Positions 6,371 through 64,000 of a stretch of DNA of 64,000 nt are shown here, piece by piece. The stretch covers positions 162,564,001-162,628,000 of the forward strand of contig OX597814.1 in assembly GCA_951406725.2 (NCBI GenBank), written 5' to 3'. Position 1 is the first letter of the stretch; each line of letters begins with the position of its first letter. The stretch comes from Octopus vulgaris (lineage: Eukaryota). Made by a program: the position numbers and the translations under genes. The notes beneath the pieces are model-generated. The model had not been told where the DNA came from. It made no database searches and saw only the letters and a program-made list of their open reading frames with translations.

Positions 6371-7053
6371 TACAGCCGAAACTAGAAGTTTGGAACATAG
6401 ATCTGAAAGTTAGAATTTTTATGTTAAATGCCCAAATTTATATTCAATTTGCAATATATTATTACTTGACCGAAAGTTTGGGACATAGGTCTGAAAATCA
6501 GAATCTCTATATCTATAAACGGCAAAACGTCCGTGTATCTGTGTGTCTGTGTGTCCTTTATACAAATCCAGTTTTTCACGTAAAAGGCTCGCATTTTCTA
6601 TGGGCTTTCAAAATTGTCTGAGGGTGGTCGTGAAGATCTTTTCATTCCCCCAGTCACCCCAGAAAGCCATTAAAAAATCGATAAACCGACCCCTTATGCG
6701 CAACAGTTGAATGCGCGTGCGCTTTTGCAGACAGTCTGTATGACTCAGCGCCTTTTTGTGTTTTGCGAAGACGCGTCATCATGTGTTTTGGTTTTCAAAC
6801 GTGCACGCTTTTTTGATTTGAGAAATGCAGGGAATAATTAACGAGTTAGACCAAGTGAATGACAAGAGAGCAGGATTTTCATGAAAGAACAAATATGCTT
6901 GACTAGCACTAGACCCGGCAACACCGGGTCATAGTGCTAGTTTTTATATAAAATGCCCAAATATATACGTTGTATATATCTGAATTGAATTGTACTTGAG
7001 CATAGCAATTTTAATTTTAAAAAGAATGTTCCAAACTTTCGGCCACGACTGTA
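6371..7053. mobile_element. Tc1-like MITE hosting the Helitron
   Basis: tacag..aagtttggaaca and tgttccaaactttcggccacgactgta form imperfect TIRs with TA ends. Confidence 0.5.
6504..6940 (+). mobile_element. Non-autonomous Helitron
   Basis: 5' TC, 3' hairpin gacccgg-caaca-ccgggtc then CTAG. Inserted between A and T without TSD. Confidence 0.8.
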
Positions 7054-7530
7054 CGCGTTGATTCTATGGTTAGCTTAGTTTTGGGACTCGCCACCAATGG
7101 ATTGATGAGAATACTGATGTCGTTTATGTTGATCCGCATTTTTTATTTATTTATGCGATGGTGGTGGATGAGTAAATATGAAGTTTCTTGCTCAGGATCA
7201 TTGTTCAAGATTACTAGCAACCTGTGGGATTAGAACTAGCTTCAATGAGGAGACGAAAGTGAAAGTGAGGTGAACGATACTGAGGAAATGCAGGAAACAA
7301 AATTTAAAAACAAATACGAAAAACATGCCAGCATGTTGGAACAGCGGTATACAGATAGATTATTCTATCAAAATAAGTAGATAGATAAGCAGATAGGCTA
7401 AAGTGATAAAAGAATGTGTGTTTGTACAATATATAGCGGGTTGAATTAGCCAAAACTGAAAACACATACACATACACACAAAGATTGCCTGTAAGTCATA
7501 CCTAACTTAATTAGTCAATATTTGATATTA

Positions 7531-49814: not shown

Positions 49815-50130
49815 GCACTCCGTCGGCTACGACGACGTGTGTTCCAGCTGATTGGATCAACCGAACAATCTGCTCGTGAAATTAACGTGCAAGTGGCTAA
49901 GCATTCCACAGACGTGTCCACCACTTAACGTAGTTCTGAAGGAGATTCAGCATGACACAGAATGTGACAAAGCTGGTACTTTGAAATAAAGGTACTACTC
50001 ATTTTTGCCAGTTGAGTGGACTGGAGCAACGCGAAATAAAGTATCTTGTGAAGGTCACAAAGCGAGCCGGGAATCGAACTCACGACCTTACGCGCGTGAA
50101 CCGATTACCCTAACCACTAAACCATGCGTA
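49815..50130 (-). mobile_element. SINE family C
   Basis: Homologous to 5013-5330. Confidence 0.8.
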
Positions 50131-50557
50131 TATTCACATATAGGGACATAAGTTGTAGGTGCACAAGAGGTGTTGTGATATCACCTTTGGGCGACATTGA
50201 GATGATGCATAGGTATACCTGGCTGAAGTACATGGCATAATGGTTAAGAAGTTTACTTCGCAATCACAATATTTCGGGTTCGATCCTACTGCGTAACATC
50301 AAGTATCTTTTCGCATGCTCTCGAGTTGAACCAAGCCTTTCCCTTTGCCTTCTTCAGGCAGGTGGAATTTGAACTCGGAATGTAGAGAGACGGAAGATAT
50401 ATCCTAAAGCATTTCTGCCGATGCAGCAACGATTTTGCTACTTTTTCAGTTGCAGAGCAACGTGAAATGAGGTGTTTTTCTCAAGAATACAACGCGTCAC
50501 TCGATCCAGGAATTGAACGCATGATCTAACGACCGTGAGTACAACACCTTGACCACA

Positions 50558-51322
50558 GGTGCAGGACAATTCAGCACTACCGACTTAACACCGCCGACTC
50601 GACGCCAGGACAACTCAACACCGAGACAACTCTTCACCAGGAAAGTTGATTAACAAATAATATATTCGTTTTATAACTTTATTTTTTAAATAACATTATC
50701 AAGTATTTATAAAAGATTAATTTAATACATGACATAAATTTTAAAATTCGAATAAAAGTAACTATATATTTTTAATACAAGGCTAAAATTTAAATGAGAA
50801 ACTTCCTGAAAGTTGTAAGCAATTTCCTTCAAATAGTTTATGGGAGATCTTTCTGAAAGAGGTGAAACAATATGCAGAATTCTATCATCTACCTTCATAT
50901 ACTTCTTCAGTTTAGGGTGAATGGGGATGACCTCCAGTCAGTGGCTCAAAAAATGCACTTCGGTTTCTTTGCACCTTACGTAGCTCCTTTATGGATCTTC
51001 ATATTGTTGGAGTGCTCCATTCCCACGTCTATTCCAGAACGCGCGCGCGCACGCACACATAATTATATGCTCTATAAATTACTTTTATTCGAATTTTAAA
51101 AGTTCTGCTTTTTTTTTTATTCAAAACATGTATTAAGATTAACCTTTTTATAAATTTCCGATAATGTTATAAAACGAATAAATTATTTATTAATCAATTT
51201 TCCTGGTGTTATCTTGGTGTTGAGTCGTCCTGGCGCTGAGTCGGCGGTGTTGAGTCGGCGGTGTTGAGTTGGCGGTGATGAGTTGGCAGTGGTGAGTTGG
51301 CGGTGGTGAATTGTCCTGGGCC
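50558..51322. mobile_element. Non-autonomous Mutator/MULE-like element with ~200-bp TIRs
   Basis: Long inverted arms caggacaattc.. and ..gaattgtcctgg with 14-bp subrepeats ggcggtgttgagty. Internal minus-strand peptide KKYMKVDDRILHIV..INYLKEIAYNF resembles a MULE transposase C-terminus. Confidence 0.7.
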
Positions 51323-52015
51323 TTAGAATGTATCCATTCTACATGTGTACATATCAGGGGTCAATAAAGTTCTTATATTATTGGTCACTTCATGGGATCG
51401 TTGATATCTTTTGTATCATTACCGCTTTTTAAGAAGAAATATTTAAAGAAATTTTTGTGAAATATGTTTTGTGAATACTAGGCATGACATCGATATTTGG
51501 TTGAAAATTAATAAATTCTAACATTAAATTACTAAGCTCTTTCAGATTCAGTTCGTTAATAATTCAGCACCCTTAATGCTCAAAATTATTTCAGGTATTT
51601 TTCGATCCTATGGATAGCCACATAGACCCCTCCGGAAATCAACATTGACCACTTTGCCGGCTCCTGGCTTTGTAGTTAGAGTATTGGGCTTTCATCCTTT
51701 GGGTTGTGGGTTCAATTCCTGAACTGGGCTACACATTTGTCCTTCATATTACGTGACACTACATTTTACGTGGTTTCAATTAGCTCATCTGAAAATGCGT
51801 ACCAGCAACAGCTGGTTGGAGGAATAAATCCTGCGAAGGACTGGCGATCCTATGTACTCCAAGTCGCTTAAACGCCCCAGAAACAGAGATAATCTCCTGT
51901 CGAAAGGATCTCTCGGCTCGAGACAAACTCAAACATTTTAAACTCTGTATAGGCATATGAATGTATTTCGCTGTTGTTCCATCCTGTGTCATATCTGAGC
52001 AGAACTATGAATCTA

Positions 52016-52070
<55 letters not shown>

Positions 52071-52859
52071 ATGAATCGGAAACTTAGTGTGTGTGTATAT
52101 CACCGAATACCAGTTGAAGTAGGTACACAACAACGGATTAGGTTACTATTTTATTTTGAAGATCTGGTGTTTCAAGATGGTTATGTGATCGTCTACCAAA
52201 CAATTACCGCACAACATACAAGTATTCCCGAATGAAAGGCGTGTTAAGATGATGCAATTTATAATATTATAATAAAAAGATTATCTAAATCTGCTTCGTT
52301 CTGCTCTCGGAGATGGATACACACACACATCCACATATACATATACATGTATATGTGTGTGGGTGTGTGTATAAATGTACGAATCCATATTAACATATAA
52401 AGACATATATATTCATGAATACGTAATATTTTGTGTGTGTGTATGTGTGTGTGTGTGTGTCTGTGTGTGTAACCCAGTTGTCTCTAGATAAAATATTATT
52501 AGATTCAGTAATAAACTTCGCTGACCCTCCCTGAAATTGGAAACACAAACTTTGGAAAAATGGGTTAATTTGCAATGCCAATCTTTTCTTTATTAGTGCT
52601 ACTATAATGATGACACTTCCATTATCGTTGCAAATATTATAACTGTTATGATATATTACTAATACTATGACTAGTATGTGGGTGATATCACTATATTAGT
52701 TATATATCTAACACGATAGAGTCGACTCTGGTTTTACACCTCAACTTATTAAGTATTAAGAGATATCCATTAACGGAAAAACGACATTGTTGATTTGAGA
52801 TACGGGAGATTATTATTGTATGTATGTGTGTGTGTGTGTATTGAATTGTGGGTATATCT

Positions 52860-53250
52860 TGCAGTATTTCTTCCGGTTCTTTACGCTCCGAGTTCAAATC
52901 ATGAAGACGGCAACTTTTGTCCCTCTGAGCTCGATAAAAATTACCAGTGGAGAACGGGGGTCGATACAATTAATTTACCTGCTCTCTTAAAAATAATTGC
53001 TAGCCTTGTGCCAAAGTTACGCAGGATTATGATTATCTTAAAAAGCGGCAAGTTGGCAAAAGCGTCAGCGTGCCGGATAAAAAGCTTAGCATTTTCTCTG
53101 GCTCTATGTTCTGAGTTCGAATGATTGCGGAGGTCTACTTTGATCCCATCCTTTCGGTTATAAGTACCAGTCGAATACTGAAATCAAGGTAAGCGATTAT
53201 TTCCCTTTCCTCAAAATTTCTGGCCTTGTGCTAAAATTAGAAAGAAATTA
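52860..53250 (+). mobile_element. Two degenerate SINE family B copies
   Basis: Family B motifs gagttcaaat and taagtaccagt. Confidence 0.6.
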
Positions 53251-53895
53251 CTGTTATTGTTGTTGATGTTGTATGTCGCTGATTGTTCGAGCGAACCAAC
53301 TTCTTTCTCAAGGCTCCTGCGAAAATGTAGTTTTTAAGCGGAGTATCTAATTGAAAAATGCTTTGTTCTAGTTTTATGAATAGAAAGGTCTGGGATTGTC
53401 TGAGGGACCCATCTCTTCACCAGCGGTAGAAAGGTCCAGTCCTCCAAAATTTTAACTGTTTATTTCTGTCGTTGGTTTTATATTGCAAGATGGTCGCCTT
53501 GGACGTAAGATGAGGTGTTTGTTATAGCCTCAATAACGCTATCAAGACTCACTCTCCAATTATTTCAAACACGAAACAAAATCTAAAAATAGTATGAAAA
53601 AAATAATATGACAGAGACACAACTTACGGTTAAATAATCGAAATAATAAAATATGGTGTTTGAAATATTAATTTAAATGTGAAAATAAAAAGCATGAACA
53701 GTACAAACATCAATGTTGAACATCGCCAACAGCAACATTTCAATTTCTGCAAGTGTTGTAGATGTAAAAAAGCTCTTCGATATGAGCCATGTCAAAGAAA
53801 AGGAGAAGGTATGAACAAAGGAATGTGGAGGGAGACAGTAATTTCTTGTTTGAAACATTCAAATACACCCCAGAAAAATACTAAAGATATTTACA

Positions 53896-54040
53896 TGTGG
53901 TAAGAAGCTTGCTTCCCAGTCACATAGTTCCGGGTTCAGTCCTACTGCGTGGCGTCTTCGGCAAGTGTCGTCTATTACAGATTCGGGCTTACCAAAGACT
54001 TCTGAGTTGATTTGGTAGACGGAAACTGAAAGAAGCTTTT

Positions 54041-54085
<45 letters not shown>

Positions 54086-54310
54086 CTGTCTGTGTTTGGT
54101 CCCCACCACCGCTTGACAACCGTCCTTGGAATGTTAATGTCCCCGTAACTTAGCTGTGCGGCAAAAAGTGACAGATAAAATAAGTACCAGGCTTAATAAA
54201 ATATAAGTACTGGGATCGATTTATTTGACGAAAATTTCTTCAAGGGGTTGTCTCAGCATGGCTGCAGTCAATTGATTGAAACAGGCAGAGGATAAAAGGT
54301 AAAAGAAGAT
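53896..54310 (+). mobile_element. SINE family A
   Basis: Homologous to 18799-19240. Confidence 0.8.
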
Positions 54311-54567
54311 ATTGTTTTTCAAACAATGAAAGTGGTTTCCACATCCTCTCGAAAGGAAAGCAGTGAGAAGCTCTGGTTAGTGTGTGGTAGGACGTGAGGT
54401 CCCACGACAGAAGCAACGGGAAATTGAATAGTGTTTGAAACCTAGGACAAGTTTACGAAGCATGCACCACACGGGCCTTACAGGCCAGTGCGACAATTAG
54501 GGCAGGTACCAAAACATTTGACATTTTATTTATGCCACATAATAATAATAATAATAATAATGATAAA

Positions 54568-55105
54568 GGCGGCGAGCTAGCAGAATTGTTAGCACGCTAG
54601 GCAAAATGCTTAGCGGTATTTCGTCTGCCGTTACGTTCTGAGTTCAAATTCCACCTTTCATCCTTTCGAGGTCGATAAATTAAGTACCAGTTACACACTG
54701 GGGGTCGATATAATCGACTTAATCCGTCTGTCTGTCCTTGTTTGTCTCCTCTGTGTTTAGCCACTCGTGGGTAGTAAAGAAATAGGTATTTCGTCTACCA
54801 CTACGTTCTGTGTTCAAAATCCACCGAGGATGACTTTGCCTTCCATCCTTTCGGGGTCGATGTTATCGAATTACGCCTTCACAACAAATTTCAGGCCTTG
54901 TGCCTATAATAGAAAGGATTATTATTATTCTTCTTATTATTAAGGCGGCGATCTGGTAGAATCGTTAACACGCTGGACGAAATGCTTAGCCGTATTTCGT
55001 CCGTCGCTACGTTCTGAGTTCAAATTCCGCCGAATTCGACTTTACCTTTCATCCTTTCGGGGTCGATAGAATAAGTACCAGTTGAACACTGGGGTCGATG
55101 TAATA
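54568..55105 (+). mobile_element. SINE family B cluster (composite plus a further copy)
   Basis: ggcggcgagc-type heads at 54568 and ~54943, restart at 54785. Confidence 0.8.
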
Positions 55106-55515
55106 GAGAAAAGAGGAAGATATGAAAGGGAGGGAGAGAGATGGAAAAAGAGCAAGATATGGAAGAGAGAAGGCTAGAGGTAGATGCAAAGACAGACAAA
55201 TAGAGAGAGGAGCGGGGTCAATAACTAAAAAATCACTTCAGGTAGAGCAATAGACCGGTGACATATTTAGAGCTTTGACGGTGTATTATGGCCTGTCTGT
55301 TCCAAAGTGCTTGCGTTCTGACTACGATGTCGTAAGCGACTTGAGTTTCATTGCTTTCCTTTTTGAGAAAATTCTTGGCGAAGAGGTTGAGATTTGCACG
55401 TGCACCTACAAGTCACATATATGAAGGCTACCCAGGCTTTTGAGATGAGATCAGTCGAAGTGCTAGAAATAACGCACTACTCAGCATATAAAAAGTCTTT
55501 CTCTCCCTCTCTCTG

Positions 55516-55555
<40 letters not shown>

Positions 55556-55607
55556 GAAATGTGTCCTTTGCAAGCAAGATGTACTGGACGTCAATTCAGT
55601 GCACAAG

Positions 55608-55736
<129 letters not shown>

Positions 55737-55944
55737 CATATATATGTATATATATACATATATATGCATATATATGTATATATATGTATATATATATATG
55801 CATATATATATACATATATATGCATATATATACACATATATGCATATATATACACATATATATGCATATATATACATACATATATATATATATGCGTAGA
55901 TATATACATATATATGCATATATATATGCCTTCTTATTCGTCGC

Positions 55945-56400
55945 CCTTTTCAAGCGTAGCCAGGCTCATGGGCCCGATTTCCCGGTTTCTGTGGCGTATG
56001 TGTTCCCCCCAGCTAGACGGGACGCCAGTGCATCAGAGGGTTACTCAAGAAAGAGGAGAGAGTGAGAGAAATTTGTGGCGAAAGAGTACAACAGGGGTCG
56101 CTACCACCCCCTGCCAGAATCTCGTGGAGCCTTTAGTTGTTTTCGCTCAATAAACACACACAACGCCCGATCTGGGAATCGAAACCGCGATCCTCCGACT
56201 GCGAGTCCGCTGCCCAAAACACTGGGTCATTGCGCCTCCACTAATAAATAAATGCACCCGTTTAAAGCCTAGCCAGGCTCATGGGCCCGGTTTCCCGGTT
56301 TCAATGCCGTATGTGTTCTCCAGCTAGAACGTCGCCGGTGCAGGAATCGAAACCTCAATCTTACGAACATGATACTGACACCCTAAACACTAAGCCTCCA
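55945..56400 (-). mobile_element. Two adjacent tRNA-derived SINEs sharing a tail
   Basis: agccaggctcatgggccc repeated. Minus-strand heads with ggtttcgattcc B box. Confidence 0.65.
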
Positions 56401-56419
56401 CACTTACACATATATTATT

Positions 56420-56459
<40 letters not shown>

Positions 56460-57223
56460 TATATATATGTATATATATATATGCATATATATATATGCAT
56501 ATATATATATATGCATATATATGCATATATGCATATATATATATATATATATATATATGCATATATATATATATATGCATATATATATATATGTATATAT
56601 ATATGTATATATGCATATATATATATGCATATATATATATATACATATATGTATATATGCATATATATATATGCATATATATATATATACATATATGTAT
56701 ATATGCATATATATATATGCATATATATATATGTATATATATATATATGTATATGTATATATGCATATATATATATATACATATATGTATATATGCATAT
56801 ATATATATACATATATGTATATATGCATATATATATATGCATATATGCATATATATATATGCATATATGCATATATATATATGCATATATATATATATAC
56901 ATATATGTATATATGCATATATATATGTATATATGCATACATGCATATATATATGTATATATGCATACATGCATATATATATATATGTATATATATATAT
57001 GTATATATATATGTATATATGCATATATATATATATGTATGTATATATGCATATATGCATATATATATATATATGCATATATATATATATGTATATATGC
57101 ATATATGCATATATATATATATATGCATATATGCATATATATATGTATATATGCATATATGCATATATATATATATATGCATATATGCATATATATATAT
57201 ATATATATATGCGTATATATATA

Positions 57224-57303
<80 letters not shown>

Positions 57304-57313
57304 TATATATATA

Positions 57314-57344
<31 letters not shown>

Positions 57345-57369
57345 GCGTATATATATATATTTGCTTATA

Positions 57370-57404
<35 letters not shown>

Positions 57405-57413
57405 TTGCTTATA

Positions 57414-57448
<35 letters not shown>
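56420..57448. repeat. (TA)n/(TATGCA) compound microsatellite abutting the 362-bp array
   Basis: Directly visible. Confidence 0.92.
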
Positions 57449-58089
57449 GCTTGTTCGAAGGTTATATGGATACAGTTTGTGTATCAAATAGCTAACTTAA
57501 GGCGATAGCCTCATGGAGCTAATAAGCGGACAGCTTTTTTCTTATTTTTATAAGAATGCCATATTAGTATGGCGATAACTATTATTTTCCGGGAACGCTG
57601 CCGCTGTTCTCTTTTAGAGAGACTTAGTTATTTTAATATTTCTATTATTGAAAACAAGTGGATGTATTCCACCGAAACTAGGTAAATAAAACCATCGAAC
57701 AGAGATTGTCGGAAGCGACACCTACTGGCTGGCTACGCTGCATTGAAAAGGGGCAATACTCCGAAACGCGTCTGTAGCTGCCGGTCAAGTAGTGTGGAGC
57801 GACTGACCTCCCTTGTTCGAAGGTTATATGGATACAGTTTGTGTATCAAATAGCTAACTTAAGGCGATAGCCTCATGGAGCTAATAAGCGGACAGCTTTT
57901 TTCTTATTTTTATAAGAATGCCATATTAGTATGGCGATAACTATTATTTTCCGGGAACGCTGCCGCTGTTCTCTTTTAGAGAGACTTAGTTATTTTAATA
58001 TTTCTATTATTGAAAACAAGTGGATGTATTCCACCGAAACTAGGTAAATAAAACCATCGAACAGAGATTGTCGGAAGCGACACCTACTG
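57449..58089 (+). repeat. 362-bp tandem repeat (retrozyme-like), upstream part, ~1.8 units
   Basis: ttgttcgaagg at 57451 and 57813, ggaagcgaca at 57711 and 58073: period 362, copies essentially identical. Starts directly after a TA-rich microsatellite. Confidence 0.95.
57737..57778 (+). ncRNA. Minimal type I hammerhead ribozyme, U3/A8 variant
   Basis: Stem I gctgca/tgtagc, core TTGAAAA, stem II gggg-caata-ctcc, GAAA, palindromic stem III acgcgt, predicted cleavage after GTC at 57772. Confidence 0.85.
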
Positions 58090-58306
58090 ATTTTTCCTTG
58101 GATTACGTCGGATTATTTTACGCTGTAAGCTGTTATGTTAGTTCGTTCTGTTCTGGATTTACACGTACAATTTTTGGAGTATTAACTTGTGAAACAAAGT
58201 AATTTTCGCCCTTCGGGGTAGAAAATTTCTTTTTATATATGAACTTTAATTCAGTGTGGATTTAATTTTTATCTTGTCTCTTGTGACAAGTCACTTGCAT
58301 TTTATT

Positions 58307-59782
58307 ATGGATCTTGACTTAACGTCAAATTCTGATTTTCCCGAGATGGGAGAAGTTATAAAGCAAAAGGATACAAAGGAGAAACAAAGTTTTTCGGAAG
58401 CCGTTGGAGGCAATGTTATAGAACTGGAAGTAACAATGGCGGATCTCTTCAAGTTCAGAAAGTTCATACAAAGGAATGGAGAAGAAACGAGAATAATACC
58501 GCCCCTGACACCTTACAAGCAATCCGTGAGAAGACGGTAATTTATAAGGTATATAATATTAAGGAAAAAAAGATTGCAGATGTAAGAAATGAATTGGTAG
58601 AACGGTGCATGGCACCAATTTGGAACAAGGTTCGCTATGTTGGCCGAGGAGTGAGAAGCGCTACTATTGAAGCGCAATTCGAGTCGGCTAGCATAGCGAA
58701 GGAAATTTCAACTCAAACGTTGAAGAGTGCAGACATCCTGTTGCTGCCCACGTACTTAGGGCGCAGAACAGCTAAGATAACAATAGAGGATATACCAACA
58801 GGTTACGATGTAATGTGGGCAGCAACAGCGGTCGTATTCGACGTAGAAGAGAAATTAAACATTTTAAACATGAGGATGAAAGAGGCAAAATTTTGGAAAG
58901 GTCAGCAGCTTGAAATGATCGTTCAAGCTGACAATGCAACGCTGGAGAGTTTGCCAGACAGGGTCTTCGTGGGGGATGGACACACTGCGCGGGTATCGGT
59001 TGAGGGACGTAGGCCCAGATGTTTCAAATGTGGGCAGAAGGGTCACGTCCGCTCAGAGTGCAAAAAGAAAAAACCCGTTAATGCCCCCATTCAAACCGCT
59101 GTGGAGAACAAAGCAGACATCACAGCAACAACTAAAGAGAATACCCGGAAAAAGCAAAATGAAAGTCAAAAGGAGGAAAAGAAAATGAATGGAAAACAAA
59201 ACGAAAACGAGGTGGAAAATATTTTATCAAATGGAAAAGAACTGGAAGTAATGGAATATACGACTGTAACCAACAAAAGGAAGAAATCCAATACCCCGGA
59301 CTCCCCACCCCAAACAAAAAGAAAAACAAACGCAGAAGAACAACACAAAAAAATTATCCAATCCCACCCCGCTGGCACTACTTTTGTAGGCCAGCATTTC
59401 ATTAAACCCCAGCCCCCAACTTTAAAAGGATTCAAAAAAAACCGATAGGTGCATTGCTTATAACACAAAAAACGAGAGAGTAGTTTGGTACATAAAGGCG
59501 AAACCAAACATAAAATGTTTCAAATCATCGGAAAAAAACCCGGATTGGAGGTATGCGAAGGTTGGAGAGGAGGAATGGAAGGAGAGACTCTTCCAACTAC
59601 ACGTGAGGGACAACCTGATTAAAGATGTCACACAAGAGGTGATAGCTGGAAAATTGAATATTAGCCCGGCAGCCACTCCATCCCAGAGCCCGGTGGCAAC
59701 GCCGATTAAATGCCCAGCAACAACGGAGAGTGTGGGGGAGGCAGGCAGACAAAAGCTGCCATGCTCCCTCTCACAACCGTAA
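58307..59782 (+). CDS. ORF1 (gag-like, CCHC zinc knuckle), interrupted by two apparent frameshifts
   Basis: ATG at 58307 (MDLDLTSNS..). Middle segment (track ORF 58594-59448) contains CFKCGQKGHVRSEC. After the A8 run at ~59434-59441 another frame stays open to TAA 59780-59782, just before ORF2. Confidence 0.75.
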
Positions 59783-59806
59783 GTAACAAACTTTCTTCAT
59801 TCATCG

Positions 59807-62800
59807 ATGATTAAGTTGGGCTGTATAAATGTGCGTGGAATGGGGTCGAAATGGAAACAGGCTTGCTTGCTGGACGACCTCAGGACACACAGAATAGATG
59901 TAGCCATTGTCACCGAGTCCAAGATGAGAGGAACCCAAGCGTTCTCGCATCTTCTCAATGGTTACGAGAAATTTATTTCTCCTAGCCGAGGAGGAAGTGC
60001 AGGCGTGGCAGTCCTTATCAGGAAGAACTTGGACTTACAGGTAAGTACTGTCTTTATGGACCCAGAAGGTAGGCTGGTTGTCCTCGATGTAACTCACGTA
60101 AGTAAGCAGTCCTTCAGGTTGGTAGCTGTTTATGCTCCTAATGAGGGTAGGCAGACTGGTTTTTATCGGAACTTGGAGCACTTTCTAGTGACGTCTAAAA
60201 CGGTAGTATTGGTAGGGGATTTCAACACTATCATCGATGCGCGGATAGATAGTGTGGGCTCGTCTGATAGAAGGGGGAATCCTTGCCTTAAGGGTCTACT
60301 GACGAGCTTTAATCTAGTAGATCGGTTTCGAATGGATGAGCCGAGCATTCCACAGTGGACGTGGAGTAACAATGACGGCTCACGCAGATCGTATATAGAT
60401 AGGGTATTTGTTAAAGAACGAGATAGGAATAGCATTAGCTGTCCACAATTTTGTATTGTGCCTTACACGGATCACAAATTAGTGACGTGTGAGGTACATG
60501 TAGATAAATGCCATAGACAGGGACCCGGATACTGGAAAATGAACAAGTCTATTTTGGCTTGTGAAGCTTTCCGTAACCGGATTATGGAATTAGTCCAGAG
60601 GGCATTATGTGGAACCATCATTAATAATAGATGGTGGATCGCCCTCAAAAGAGCCATCCGTTTGGAGTCCATTAGATTTAGCAACCAGCTAAGTTTAGAT
60701 AGGACTAGAATAGAGGGCGATTTAGTTAAGAACTTAGACGAGGCAATGGGATCTGGCTGTGCATCTAGAGTGTTAGCAGAGAGAACGATCTTGTACCGTC
60801 ACCTCAATGCCAAGCATGAAGGATGTAGAGTCAGAGCTAAGCTACGTGCAGTGAAACGAGAAGGTATTAATGTTGCCGGATGGGCACGTCGTGTGGAGAG
60901 TCAGAAGGGCAAAAAGTCCTCTATTAAGTCTTTAACTGACGAACAGGGACGCAAAATCTATGGACAGGAGGAGATACAGAAGGTCTTTCAACAGCATTTC
61001 GCTCGGTTGTTTGGGGAGGGCGATCCACTCGAGCGAGGGGAGGACTTACAGAACTTCCTAGCTGGTGGGCCTCGGCTCTCGCCAAGCAGAGCGGAACGCT
61101 GTGAAGGACCGATTACTCCCGCGGAGGTAAGAGGGGTTTTGGCTGAATGCGCCCGGGAAAAGTCGCCGGGACTGGATGGTCTGCCCTATGAGTTTTATTG
61201 TTGTATGCCGGACTTGTTCGGGGACATACTGGCAAGCGTCTACGCAAACTGGCAACAGAATGGGAGGATTCCCAGTTCTGTGAGCCGGGGAGTTGTGACG
61301 CTGATCCAGAAAGACCCGAGCAAGGGGGATAATATTAGTAATTATAGGCCCATAACTCTACTTAATGTAGAGTTAAAGATTTTGGCCAAGGTGTTAGCAG
61401 AAAGGTTGAAGGTCGTCATGGAAAAACTTGTCGGAAAGGCACAGACATGTGCAATCCCAGGCAGGTCGATCGAAGATAATCTTCACCTTCTACGCTACAC
61501 TATAGACAGGGTTGGGCAATTAGCCGGCAAAGGAGGGGCATTGGTCCATTTAGACCAAAGTAAAGCATTTGATAGGGTAGATCATCAGTACCTGGCGACG
61601 GTTCTCGAAGCGGCTGGGCTAGGTCCTGACTTTCGCGGGTGGATATCAGCTATGTACAGCGGTATCAAGTCCACAGTCCAGATAAACGGTTACTTAACGG
61701 AACCGTTTTCGATTAAGCGTTCAGTTCGTCAAGGATGTCCCTTGTCCCCTCTCCTGTACGTTTTGGCTCTTGAGCCATTGCTGCGGAAGTTGGAGACGGT
61801 GAGATGCAATCCTAATGAAATCGGATGCGGTAAGTCTGTTTCTGCGTATGCGGATGACGTCACCTTCATCGTGTCCAACGAAGCACAACTAACTCGTGTA
61901 GAAGGTGCTCTCCGAAGATACGAAGCGGTGGCTGGGGCAAAAGTTAACAAGGACAAGTCCACTGGTTTGCGCCTCGGCACCTGGAGGAACAAGCCGATAT
62001 CGTCCAGTGTTGTTGGACACTGGACAGATGGTCCTGTTAAATTGCTTGGAGTTTGGTTTGGTTCAGACTCCCAGACGGAGAAAAATTGGAGCGAGGTAGT
62101 GACCAAGGTAGAAGCCATAGTTCGGGAGTGGTCCGGAAGGCATCTTTCCTTGAAAGGGAGGGCGGAGGTGGTACAGGTGTTTATAGCATCTGTAATCACC
62201 TATCGCCTGACTGTCGTGCCTTGCCCCGATTTGTGGCTAAGCAAGTTGGATCGACTCCTTTTCCGCTTTTTGTGGAAGGGAGGAAAGCCACTTGTAAGGC
62301 GCTCCGTGTGTTGCCAGGAACCACTAAAGGGTGGGCTGGGGATGCCTTGGTTAATGATGCGCAGGCATGCGCTGAGACTGAGACATCTCTGGTTTCACCT
62401 GGAAGGTGATAAGGTGTGGAGTCCGCTGGCAGATAATTTCTTCCCGCAACCGGACTCTATGGAGAGATTTAAACCCGGTTTCATTAAAAGACGGAACCTG
62501 ACTTTATGGCAGAAAGAGTGCCGACAGGCACTCTGGCTGATCCACAAGATAGGCAAAGCCGGCTGCGGGAATACCACCTCGACATTTTATAGAAGGATGG
62601 TAGAGGCAAAAAATGACGACGTCCTAAGAGGGTCTCTGGGGTTCGATGAGGATCAACTATCCGACCTGTTTAAGAAGACTTTCAAGCCGGGGTATTTGGA
62701 CAATTACCAAAAATCCCTGACTTGGCAGTGCTATAGGAATGCTCTACCTGTTCGCGATAAGTTATATAGGCATGGAATGTCAGTGCCACCGACATGTCCA

Positions 62801-63205
62801 AGATGTGGGTTGGACGATGAAACCGTCCAGCACGCTTTTGTACATTGTCAGGAGCTGTCAGGCTTAATAAGTTACGTAGAACACGTGTTGTCGCATCTGG
62901 GACGAGTACAGCTATCGGCTGGTTCTATAATAAAGATGATACCGCCAGCTGGACTCTCAAAGGAAGGTGAGGCTTGTTTTCACTGTACGGTGGCAGTACT
63001 GAAAGAGTGTGTGTGGAGAACTAGATTGGAAGGTTTGGTGTCAGGAACCTTTGTCTCTGGATATGGTATGTTAAAATACTTCAGATACCATCTAAAGAGC
63101 AAGATGGATTTAGAGAAGAGGAACCTGACACAGAAAAAGTATGTGAATCGATGGAAGGATGTGATAAAAAAGGTGGGTGTGAGTAACCCTGCTTGGTCAT
63201 CATGA
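59807..63205 (+). CDS. ORF2 polyprotein: apurinic-like endonuclease + reverse transcriptase + C-terminal Cys/His (zf-RVT-like) motif, Tx1-like
   Basis: Uninterrupted 1132 aa. APE motifs INVRG, VYAPN, GDFN, SYIDR, TDH. RT motifs KSPGLDG, NYRPITLLN, DQSKAFDRVDH, VRQGCPLSPLLY, YADD. C-terminal CPRC..ETVQHAFVHC. Confidence 0.96.
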   Translation: MIKLGCINVRGMGSKWKQACLLDDLRTHRIDVAIVTESKMRGTQAFSHLLNGYEKFISPSRGGSAGVAVLIRKNLDLQVSTVFMDPEGRLVVLDVTHVSKQSFRLVAVYAPNEGRQTGFYRNLEHFLVTSKTVVLVGDFNTIIDARIDSVGSSDRRGNPCLKGLLTSFNLVDRFRMDEPSIPQWTWSNNDGSRRSYIDRVFVKERDRNSISCPQFCIVPYTDHKLVTCEVHVDKCHRQGPGYWKMNKSILACEAFRNRIMELVQRALCGTIINNRWWIALKRAIRLESIRFSNQLSLDRTRIEGDLVKNLDEAMGSGCASRVLAERTILYRHLNAKHEGCRVRAKLRAVKREGINVAGWARRVESQKGKKSSIKSLTDEQGRKIYGQEEIQKVFQQHFARLFGEGDPLERGEDLQNFLAGGPRLSPSRAERCEGPITPAEVRGVLAECAREKSPGLDGLPYEFYCCMPDLFGDILASVYANWQQNGRIPSSVSRGVVTLIQKDPSKGDNISNYRPITLLNVELKILAKVLAERLKVVMEKLVGKAQTCAIPGRSIEDNLHLLRYTIDRVGQLAGKGGALVHLDQSKAFDRVDHQYLATVLEAAGLGPDFRGWISAMYSGIKSTVQINGYLTEPFSIKRSVRQGCPLSPLLYVLALEPLLRKLETVRCNPNEIGCGKSVSAYADDVTFIVSNEAQLTRVEGALRRYEAVAGAKVNKDKSTGLRLGTWRNKPISSSVVGHWTDGPVKLLGVWFGSDSQTEKNWSEVVTKVEAIVREWSGRHLSLKGRAEVVQVFIASVITYRLTVVPCPDLWLSKLDRLLFRFLWKGGKPLVRRSVCCQEPLKGGLGMPWLMMRRHALRLRHLWFHLEGDKVWSPLADNFFPQPDSMERFKPGFIKRRNLTLWQKECRQALWLIHKIGKAGCGNTTSTFYRRMVEAKNDDVLRGSLGFDEDQLSDLFKKTFKPGYLDNYQKSLTWQCYRNALPVRDKLYRHGMSVPPTCPRCGLDDETVQHAFVHCQELSGLISYVEHVLSHLGRVQLSAGSIIKMIPPAGLSKEGEACFHCTVAVLKECVWRTRLEGLVSGTFVSGYGMLKYFRYHLKSKMDLEKRNLTQKKYVNRWKDVIKKVGVSNPAWSS

Positions 63206-63442
63206 AGGGAGAAAATAGTCTCTGGGCTCTTAGGCTGTCGGGTAAGAATCCTGACTGTGATATACCTAGCTGGCCAAAATCATTTTTAATTTTTAAAAAA
63301 AAAGGAGAAAAGTAAAGTCTAGTATCATAATCAATAATCAACATATGTAAATATCAAACGAACAACGTAAACTTTTTGTAATTATGTTTTGTATTGTAAT
63401 GTACTATCTCTGTAAGATTTTTATAATCATAATAAAGATTTA

Positions 63443-64000
63443 GGAAGCGACACCTACTGGCTGGCTACGCTGCATTGAAAAGGGGCAATACCCCGAAACG
63501 CGTCTGTAGCTGCCGGTCAAGTAGTGTGGAGCGACTGACCTCCCTTGTTCGAAGGTTATATGGATACAGTTTGTGTATCAAATAGCTAACTTAAGGCGAT
63601 GGCCTCATGGAGCTAATAAGCGAACAGCTTTTTTCTTATTTTTATAAGAATGCCATATTAGTATGGCGATAACTATTAAAAGGGGCAATACTCCGAAACG
63701 CGTCTGTAGCTGCCGGTCAAGTAGTGTGGAGCGACTGACCTCCCTTGTTCGAAGGTTATATGGATACAGTTTGTGTATCAAATAGCTAACTTAAGGCGAT
63801 AGCCTCATGGAGCTAATAAGCGGACAGCTTTTTTCTTATTTTTATAAGAATGCCATATTAGTATGGCGATAACTATTATTTTCCGGGAACGCTGCCGCTG
63901 TTCTCTTTTAGAAGACTTAGTTATTTTAATATTTCTATTATTGAAAACAAGTGGATGTATTCCACCGAAACTAGGTAAATAAAACCATCGAACAGAGATT
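63443..64000 (+). repeat. 362-bp tandem repeat (retrozyme-like), downstream part, runs off the window; includes a 200-bp deleted unit
   Basis: Same unit sequence resumes at the TSD. aggggcaata at 63481 and 63681 (spacing 200, i.e. a 162-bp deletion). Confidence 0.95.
63469..63510 (+). ncRNA. Minimal type I hammerhead ribozyme, U3/A8 variant
   Basis: Same fold with perfect stem II gggg-caata-cccc. Predicted cleavage after 63504. Confidence 0.85.

What the first reader, a model, noticed from the sequence alone, without database searches (positions are those of the whole stretch)
57449..58089. 362-bp satellite is a non-LTR retrozyme-like unit with a U3/A8 hammerhead
Seen: each full unit has stem I gctgca/tgtagc, core UUGAAAA in place of CUGANGA (compensatory C3U/G8A), a 4-bp stem II that varies between ctcc and cccc while keeping pairing, and palindromic stem III ACGCGU followed by GUC. 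Known: minimal type I hammerheads with palindromic stem III act as dimers in tandem repeats (newt satellite 2, Schistosoma Sm-alpha, metazoan non-LTR retrozymes) and yield small linear or circular RNAs. Near-identical copies suggest recent amplification.
Basis: partly seen in the sequence, partly recalled or inferred. Interest (0 to 1): 0.75.

Follow-up and report, generated by a model that had tools for sequence, protein, structure and literature searches.

The report
Hammerhead retrozyme hijacked by a LINE
This repeat is one young copy of a large family of small non-coding jumping elements that carry a conserved hammerhead ribozyme motif (predicted, not shown, to cut itself), bear the insertion footprint of Penelope-type retroelements, and are hit at one fixed spot by a second retrotransposon that likely borrows their small-RNA-type promoter.

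Summary
The 362-bp unit and its U3/A8 hammerhead are real. The core pattern has 3,883 genome matches against 227 for the control, and the stems covary across subfamilies. Corrections: the ribozyme is canonical-length, not minimal; ctcc/cccc is a one-sided wobble; U3/A8 is already published; the family is dispersed in short arrays, not a satellite block. Arrays sit in (TA)n, often head-to-head, and 97 of 108 arm ends fall at two fixed sites about 63 nt apart, the Penelope-like 'tail' footprint. A resident Penelope-like family shows the same footprint and a U3/A8 core. The LINE that cuts this array is not a chance neighbour: 21 of 28 listed 3' ends lie at one base 32 nt before the core, with a 17-bp duplication. 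Sister LINEs sit before other hammerhead families and at U1 snRNA +1, about 57 nt behind a shared promoter-like motif. Cleavage, circles and the start site are untested. This scan found the same system before on other pieces of this genome; my searches found no paper on it.

The parts
57449..57810 (+). Retrozyme unit 1 (362 bp); 5'-truncated start of the array, joined to (TA)n
57811..58089 (+). Unit 2, positions 1-279, interrupted by the LINE; would supply the LINE's promoter
   Evidence: promoter role inferred
57727..57786 (+). Canonical-length type I hammerhead, U3/A8 core, palindromic stem III; predicted cut 57772|57773
   Evidence: architecture compared with PMC4209133 passages
57654..57691 (+). 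Promoter-like block: PSE-like hexamer 57 nt and AT-rich stretch 28 nt before the LINE nick site (57711); repeated at 58016-58053
   Evidence: rank 1 of 724 positions; score reached by 31 of 200 shuffles
57582..57648 (+). Two fixed array 3' ends (unit 134-140 and 197-200) and the ~63-nt tail between them; inferred reverse-transcription start sites
   Evidence: PMC11167929 parts 1-2
58073..58089 (+). 17-bp target duplication, 5' copy (unit 263-279)
58090..63442 (+). L1/Tx1-like LINE, 5,353 bp, no poly(A) tail: ORF1 from 58307 (zinc knuckle, frameshifted in this copy), ORF2 59807-63205 (1,132 aa, APE-RT-zf, open)
63443..63678 (+). 3' target duplication (63443-63459), complete hammerhead (63459-63518) and unit 1-136; a block of a different haplotype from the rest of this array, ending at the 134-140 site
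63678..64000 (+). Array resumes at unit position 298 (truncated hammerhead) and runs about seven more units beyond the window to position 138 and (TA)n
56410..57448 (.). (TA)n-rich microsatellite, the insertion target of the array

Best explanation
The unit is a non-coding retrozyme with a conserved U3/A8 type I hammerhead that is likely transcribed from its own snRNA-type promoter, predicted to cut itself into 362-nt monomers and circles, likely copied into (TA)n by a Penelope-like enzyme, and parasitised by a LINE that sits at one fixed base, likely the unit's transcription start. Steps: (1, inferred) transcription starts near unit position 263, 57 nt behind a PSE-like motif and at the foot of the extended stem I. 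(2, predicted) two neighbouring hammerheads pair through the palindromic stem III and cut after GUC; successive cuts free a monomer that can circularise. (3, footprint shown, enzyme inferred) a Penelope-like RT/GIY-YIG protein nicks both strands of (TA)n and primes at two internal sites, one per strand, giving tandem arms joined head-to-head with a 63-nt tail on one end; running round a circle gives arrays with one private haplotype. (4, position shown, cause inferred) the LINE inserts at +1 with a 17-bp duplication, leaves the downstream hammerhead intact, gains the promoter and probably a ribozyme-cut 3' end that carries target sequence. (5, inferred from two loci) the LINE-bearing RNA is sometimes carried as cargo by the Penelope-like machinery, as in this window.
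For: Hammerhead. Footprint: 97 of 108 arm ends in 67 non-redundant loci at 130-141 or 195-201, 90 of those 97 with TA repeats within 12 nt; of 39 two-arm inverted insertions 31 have one end of each kind and none has two alike. Resident Penelope-like family (781-aa RT + GIY-YIG ORF) ends at two sites 40 bp apart in (TA)n, one of each in both two-armed loci, and has a U3/A8 hammerhead-like core with the AT palindrome of the older retrozyme subfamily. Array-private variants shared by all units and both arms. LINE: 21 of 28 listed 3' ends (16 loci) at the site; 16 of 16 full 5' ends at >=93% preceded by the 17-bp duplication; LINE in at least eight retrozyme haplotypes beside LINE-free units of the same haplotype, and a young 5'-truncated LINE with duplication in an older haplotype (L094). 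Sister LINEs at U1 +1 with the same 17-bp duplication and 24-33 nt before hammerhead cores of other families in 12 of 38 older ends vs 34 of 1,140 background windows. ATCAGT-like motif 56-58 nt before +1 in 10 U1 and 2 U2 genes and at the same distance before the nick. At least 220 bp of unit kept upstream in 16 of 16 LINE sites vs 8 of 24 LINE-free sites. Newt satellite 2 has an snRNA-type promoter (cited in PMC2220036).
Against: No cleavage, RNA or start-site data. Eight of nine predicted frog retrozyme dimers did not cleave in vitro (bioRxiv 2026.07.22.740005), and the anole Penelope hammerhead was dispensable for insertion in vitro (PMC11167929). No DNA similarity between the unit and the candidate partner's terminal repeat (score 47 vs shuffled 43.5 +/- 7), and tail lengths differ (63 vs 40). 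The promoter matrix ranked the expected site first in only 4 of 9 stretches (others 3, 5, 8, 19, 42) and 31 of 200 shuffles reach the window's score; the window's hexamer has two mismatches to ATCAGT. 26 of 38 older LINE ends have no intact core at that distance. U3/A8 invariance is built into the search pattern, and related sequences inflate the shuffle control.
Confidence: 0.75

Rival explanations
1. The retrozyme reading holds, but the LINE picks its site by sequence: endonuclease preference plus pairing of a read-through RNA 3' end with the nicked target; the promoter-like motif is incidental.
For: Off-target ends share the first 3-9 bases with their family's host target (ATAC for the U1 branch, ATC for older branches). 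No poly(A) at junctions. Four endonuclease residues differ between U1-type and retrozyme-type copies. Kojima 2015 states that target choice is mainly set by the endonuclease.
Against: Host targets are unlike each other, the predicted DNA-contacting hairpin loop is the same in a U1-type copy (L236) and this family (loop role recalled from L1 literature), and LINE sites need >=220 bp upstream. The two readings can both hold.
Confidence: 0.3
2. One LINE landed once in a retrozyme and all other copies are a composite spread passively by Penelope-like machinery.
For: In this window the LINE plus 237 bp is a foreign haplotype ending at a Penelope start site; in L087 the LINE is truncated at the inversion point and the two arms differ in haplotype. 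Most copies are full-length.
Against: LINE (<=1.7% apart) lies in retrozyme haplotypes up to about 9% apart; both duplication copies agree at the G/A variant in 14 of 14 loci and all four LINE-end/target combinations occur; LINE-duplication-LINE tandems; the same relative site is used in other families.
Confidence: 0.08
3. Arrays grow locally by unequal crossover from single inserted monomers (model in bioRxiv 2026.07.22.740005), and the hammerhead in young copies is no longer active.
For: Shared private variants within an array fit local duplication too; low cleavage rate of predicted frog elements.
Against: Multi-unit arms on both sides of an inversion, each ending at a fixed site in (TA)n, fit synthesis at insertion; stems and palindrome covary across subfamilies and are intact in the youngest.
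Confidence: 0.12

Closest known systems
Animal non-LTR retrozymes (coral, mussel, axolotl, newt satellite 2; PMC7229834 parts 2-3 of 6 and passages read; bioRxiv 2026.07.22.740005 parts 1-3 of 5 read)
   Same: Non-coding 150-450-bp tandem units, GC below 50%, one canonical type I hammerhead per unit with short palindromic stem III, thousands of copies, Penelope-like elements in the same genome.
   Different: U3/A8 core in a canonical-length motif; insertion ends mapped to two fixed sites in (TA)n with inverted arms; a dedicated LINE. RNA, circles and cleavage shown there, not here.
Penelope-like elements, Neptune type, and their non-autonomous derivatives such as MRC1 (PMC8557442 passages; PMC11167929 parts 1-2 of 4; PMC4209133 passages)
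   Same: Tandem plus inverted 5'-truncated copies, a tail at one end between two RT start sites, microsatellite targets, type I hammerheads; U3-A8 variant reported in Schistosoma Cercyon (about 1,300 minimal motifs).
   Different: No ORF; tail about 63 nt against 30-40; canonical rather than minimal hammerhead; no sequence similarity to the one resident family compared.
Target-specific Tx1-clade LINEs: Tx1L in Tx1D, Keno in U2 genes, Tx1-Mar, families in satellites, U5 and 5S (PMC4494074 sections 3 and 15 and passages)
   Same: Two-ORF APE LINE inserted at one site of a multicopy target, including other transposons and snRNA genes; target switching within the clade.
   Different: Target is a ribozyme retroelement; targets of close relatives share position (U1 +1; 24-33 nt before a hammerhead core) rather than sequence; a switch from U1 to this repeat within about 3-4% DNA divergence.
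Position-specific retrotransposons at RNA polymerase III genes (Ty3, TRE5-A) and R2 with its own ribozyme (recalled, no call)
   Same: Insertion at a fixed distance from a promoter; use of host transcription and ribozyme processing.
   Different: Here the promoter looks snRNA-type and the ribozyme belongs to the host repeat, not to the LINE.

Membership tests
Type I hammerhead ribozyme | Core C3(U)UGANG8(A)A, GAA, UH around three stems | tested here: met
   U3/A8 form present; 3,883 vs 227; U3-A8 precedent PMC4209133
Type I hammerhead ribozyme | Covarying stems I and II | tested here: met
   6 of 6 proximal stem I, 5 of 6 distal, 3 of 4 stem II pairs with two-sided change; slid controls 28-47% paired vs 93%
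Type I hammerhead ribozyme | Match to an Rfam hammerhead model | tested here: not met
   none up to E 10; likely the U3/A8 core and 2-bp stem III
Type I hammerhead ribozyme | Self-cleavage | not testable with these tools
   needs transcription assay
Minimal hammerhead (PLE min-HHR) | Short stem I, no loop 1/loop 2 contacts | tested here: not met
   6-bp stem I, internal loop and long distal stem
Non-LTR retrozyme | Tandem non-coding units of 150-450 bp, one hammerhead each, no LTR or ORF | tested here: met
Non-LTR retrozyme | Linear and circular monomer RNA in vivo | not testable with these tools
   only assembled contigs of unlabelled runs were available
Non-autonomous Penelope-like element | Tandem and inverted arms, tail between two fixed ends, microsatellite target | tested here: met
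Non-autonomous Penelope-like element | Sequence similarity to the terminal repeat of an autonomous partner | tested here: not met
   one family; 31 GIY-YIG loci; most Penelope-like families of the genome were not examined (150 of 6,136 candidates scored)
Target-specific Tx1-clade LINE | ORF1 with zinc knuckle, ORF2 APE-RT, L1-like | tested here: met
Target-specific Tx1-clade LINE | More than 20% of flanks in one target (criterion in PMC4494074) | tested here: met
   21 of 28
Target-specific Tx1-clade LINE | RT tree position inside the Tx1 clade | not tested
snRNA-type promoter | PSE-like motif at fixed distance before +1 | tested here: inconclusive
   rank 1 in 4 of 9 stretches, exact 57-nt spacing in the window unit, modest score

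The most novel reading that the evidence does not exclude
A three-tier parasite chain: small ribozyme circles with their own snRNA-type promoter ride on Penelope-like enzymes, and a LINE lineage finds transcription starts of snRNA-type promoters by position, not sequence, hopping between unrelated hammerhead retrozyme families and U1 with an almost unchanged endonuclease, taking its promoter and its ribozyme-cut, target-matching 3' end from the host, and at times travelling as cargo of the Penelope machinery.
Probability: 0.4. Interest if true: 0.8.

Novelty: new variant of a known kind. Interest (0 to 1): 0.6.

Why it matters
Two open points become testable. First, how animal retrozymes move: papers infer a Penelope link from co-occurrence and terminal-repeat similarity, whereas these copies carry the two-site priming footprint itself, and multi-unit arms on both sides of an inversion point to array formation at insertion. 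Second, how target-specific LINEs switch targets: here near-identical elements sit in unrelated sequences that share only a position behind a promoter-like motif, a natural series for separating endonuclease, RNA-pairing and promoter-tethering effects. The retrozyme alone is a new member of a known class.

Tried and rejected
Rfam: only (TA)n-driven microRNA noise in 50000-64000, no hammerhead. Expression: no RNA holder listed among 24 runs; contigs that go back 362 nt in four unlabelled runs fit tandem DNA as well as a circle, so they are not used; no listed piece bridged the LINE 3' junction in four runs, also not used. C3/G8 version with the same stem III: 14 vs 4 control, no family. Partner by homology: none. 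pN/pS on LINE ORF2 (0.31-0.50 between lineages, 0.17-0.88 for private changes of the eight older copies) does not separate autonomous movement from cargo. U6: the 20 loci fetched of 34 matches showed no shared upstream motif by eye and look like processed copies; not used. A distal octamer was looked for by eye upstream of U1/U2 and the unit and not found. A LINE-U2 junction reported in earlier scan notes gave 0 matches with my one pattern. The LINE tree puts retrozyme hosts B and C outside a U1 grade that contains this family (supports 83-100, one distant partial copy as root); no clade test was run, so the order is tentative. Coats 1994 on the newt promoter is not held. Literature searches; 'Tx1' with 'retrozyme' gave 0 papers. 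Repbase/Dfam entries, subscription papers and all supplements were not seen and may already list these families.

Full report
Observation. The window holds one full 362-bp unit (57449-57810) and 279 bp of a second, then a 5,353-bp LINE, then the array again. It starts and ends in (TA)n. The hammerhead lies at 57727-57786 with U3 and A8 in place of C3 and G8 and a predicted cut at 57772|57773. It folds from 57711 as one long stem I with stem II on top (z -3.1; the copy after the LINE -4.1). It has the 6-bp stem I, 4-bp stem II and short palindromic stem III that PMC4209133 (passages) calls canonical, so 'minimal' is wrong. Rfam does not see it.

Is the ribozyme under selection? The core pattern has 3,883 matches in the 2.8-Gb genome against 227 for the reversed control. 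The pattern left the two central bases of stem III free; by my hand count 88 of the first 100 listed rows have a self-complementary pair and all four kinds occur (GC 47, AT 21, CG 11, TA 9), which is what dimer pairing needs. I picked 34 distinct complete copies from the 115 motif rows, leaving out truncated copies, minimal motifs, chance hits and some near-duplicates and single mutants. On these, 93% of 677 cells pair and 15 of 20 pairs change on both sides; slid controls pair 28-47%. Relatedness inflates the shuffle control and U3/A8 is fixed by the pattern. The ctcc/cccc difference is only a G-U wobble; cccc is the common form. U3-A8 is published for Schistosoma Penelope minimal hammerheads. 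Cleavage itself is untested, and eight of nine predicted frog dimers failed in vitro.

How it spreads. The best matches are 99-100% identical and lie on many contigs (201 matches from 40 of 1,136 candidates scored). In 67 non-redundant LINE-free loci from three searches, 97 of 108 arm 3' ends fall at unit 130-141 or 195-201, 90 of the 97 next to TA repeats. Of 39 two-arm head-to-head insertions, 31 have one end of each kind, 8 have an unresolved end, and none has two alike; 27 loci are single-armed and one is complex (29 of the loci were found with a query ending at 200). This is the tandem/inverted/tail layout of Penelope-like elements (PMC8557442 passages), whose tail lies between two RT start sites (PMC11167929). 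A young resident family with a 781-aa RT + GIY-YIG ORF and a cysteine linker of Neptune/Nematis type ends at two sites 40 bp apart in (TA)n and carries a U3/A8 hammerhead-like core. It shares no DNA similarity with the unit, so it is a candidate partner only. Units of one array share private variants, often across both arms; this fits a reverse transcriptase running round a circular monomer, though local duplication is not excluded.

The LINE is targeted. It encodes a zinc-knuckle ORF1 and an APE-RT ORF2 closest to LINE-1 among solved structures. Of 30 loci fetched by its 3' end, all 19 at 98% or more and one further copy abut the same retrozyme base. A genome-wide pattern lists 28 ends (it misses those with C at its last position): 21, in 16 loci, at that base; the other 7 begin ATA(C/T), one being a full U1 gene. 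All 16 full 5' ends at 93% or more follow the 17-bp duplication. Insertions are mostly independent: the LINE lies in at least eight retrozyme haplotypes beside empty units of the same haplotype, both duplication copies agree at a G/A variant in 14 of 14 loci, and L094 is a young 5'-truncated LINE in an older haplotype. Two loci look like cargo events: in this window the LINE and 237 bp behind it are a foreign haplotype ending at position 136, and in L087 the LINE breaks at the inversion point.

What the targets share. U1-type copies have the same 17-bp duplication at U1 +1 (L236, L107, L103). Sister families about 9-13% apart in ORF2 sit 32 nt and 24-25 nt before the cores of two other hammerhead repeats (one has 255 matches vs 0 control). 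Among 40 older ends chosen from the first 100 of 115 rows (leaving out this family, the ATAC group, some repeats of family B and AT-rich doubtful rows; 2 then dropped as not LINE), 12 of 38 have a core 24-33 nt downstream against 34 of 1,140 background windows. The target sequences are unlike each other. Ten U1 and two U2 genes have an ATCAGT-like motif 56-58 nt before +1, and similar motifs lie at that distance before the nick in the retrozyme families. A matrix from these genes ranks the site 57 nt before the nick first of 724 in the window unit, but first in only 4 of 9 stretches, and 31 of 200 shuffles reach the score. All 16 scorable LINE sites keep at least 220 bp of unit upstream, against 8 of 24 empty sites (p about 1e-5; LINE values read by hand, L087 left out). 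Newt satellite 2 is cited as having an snRNA promoter (PMC2220036 passage; the original was not seen). I infer that the nick marks the transcription start and that the LINE borrows the promoter; sequence-guided priming by a read-through RNA end is a compatible rival.

Known and new. Retrozymes, their Penelope link, U3-A8 cores and Tx1 LINEs that target transposons, satellites and snRNA genes are all published. My ten paper searches found no report of a LINE that targets retrozymes (one search gave 0) or of this family; Repbase, Dfam, subscription papers and supplements were not seen. A look-up by sequence found no earlier scan note; look-ups by words and place, made after my analysis, show that other agents reached the same reading on other pieces of this genome. 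They are not independent support, some name a cephalopod host, which I did not test, and their U2 target was not found by my one pattern.

Noticed in passing
L257, L258, L261, L256, L255 (G000 C17, C2, C30, C14, C1): A second retrozyme-like family with a C3/G8 core that mostly reads CCGAUGA (U4C), a U-U or A-U first pair in stem II and a longer self-complementary stem III; 255 pattern matches; hosts a sister LINE at the same 32-nt offset.
   Followed up: partly
L120:1930-2385 and 6717-7172: Young two-ORF Penelope-like family with many intact 781-aa ORFs, 456-bp terminal repeat, U3/A8 minimal-hammerhead-like motif and 40-bp tail, in (TA)n.
   Followed up: partly
L018:3023-3099, L144, L209:288-365, L155, L218, L077: Other U3/A8 minimal-hammerhead-like motifs with short stem I in different repeats; U3/A8 seems common across this genome's ribozyme repeats.
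   Followed up: no
G000:C2:73044000-73069000 (L088-L090): Five LINE copies in one retrozyme array, three joined LINE-duplication-LINE with only the 17-bp site between them.
   Followed up: partly
G000:C18:48996000-49053000 (L115, L250, L103, L317): A pile of nested LINE fragments of several subfamilies near U1 genes, including a LINE-U1 head-LINE junction.
   Followed up: partly
L107:601-794 and 7185-7378: A full-length LINE with a 17-nt U1 head lies between two inverted U2 genes, with no U1 gene behind it; looks like a U1-promoter transcript inserted off target.
   Followed up: partly
L099:1840-1908: A 69-bp LINE 3' fragment at the same site in the inverted arm of an array that also holds a full LINE.
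   Followed up: partly
L119:2919-3414: The last unit and a half of the window's array, next to (TA)n, carry many indels; possibly assembly error.
   Followed up: no
window 55960-56320: Two related fragments of a common dispersed repeat (55960-56030 and 56270-56325) between microsatellites; not examined.
   Followed up: no
run X16; The unit is held by runs of six coded organisms; in one other organism the LINE's 3' untranslated part is covered only by short diverged pieces.
   Followed up: no
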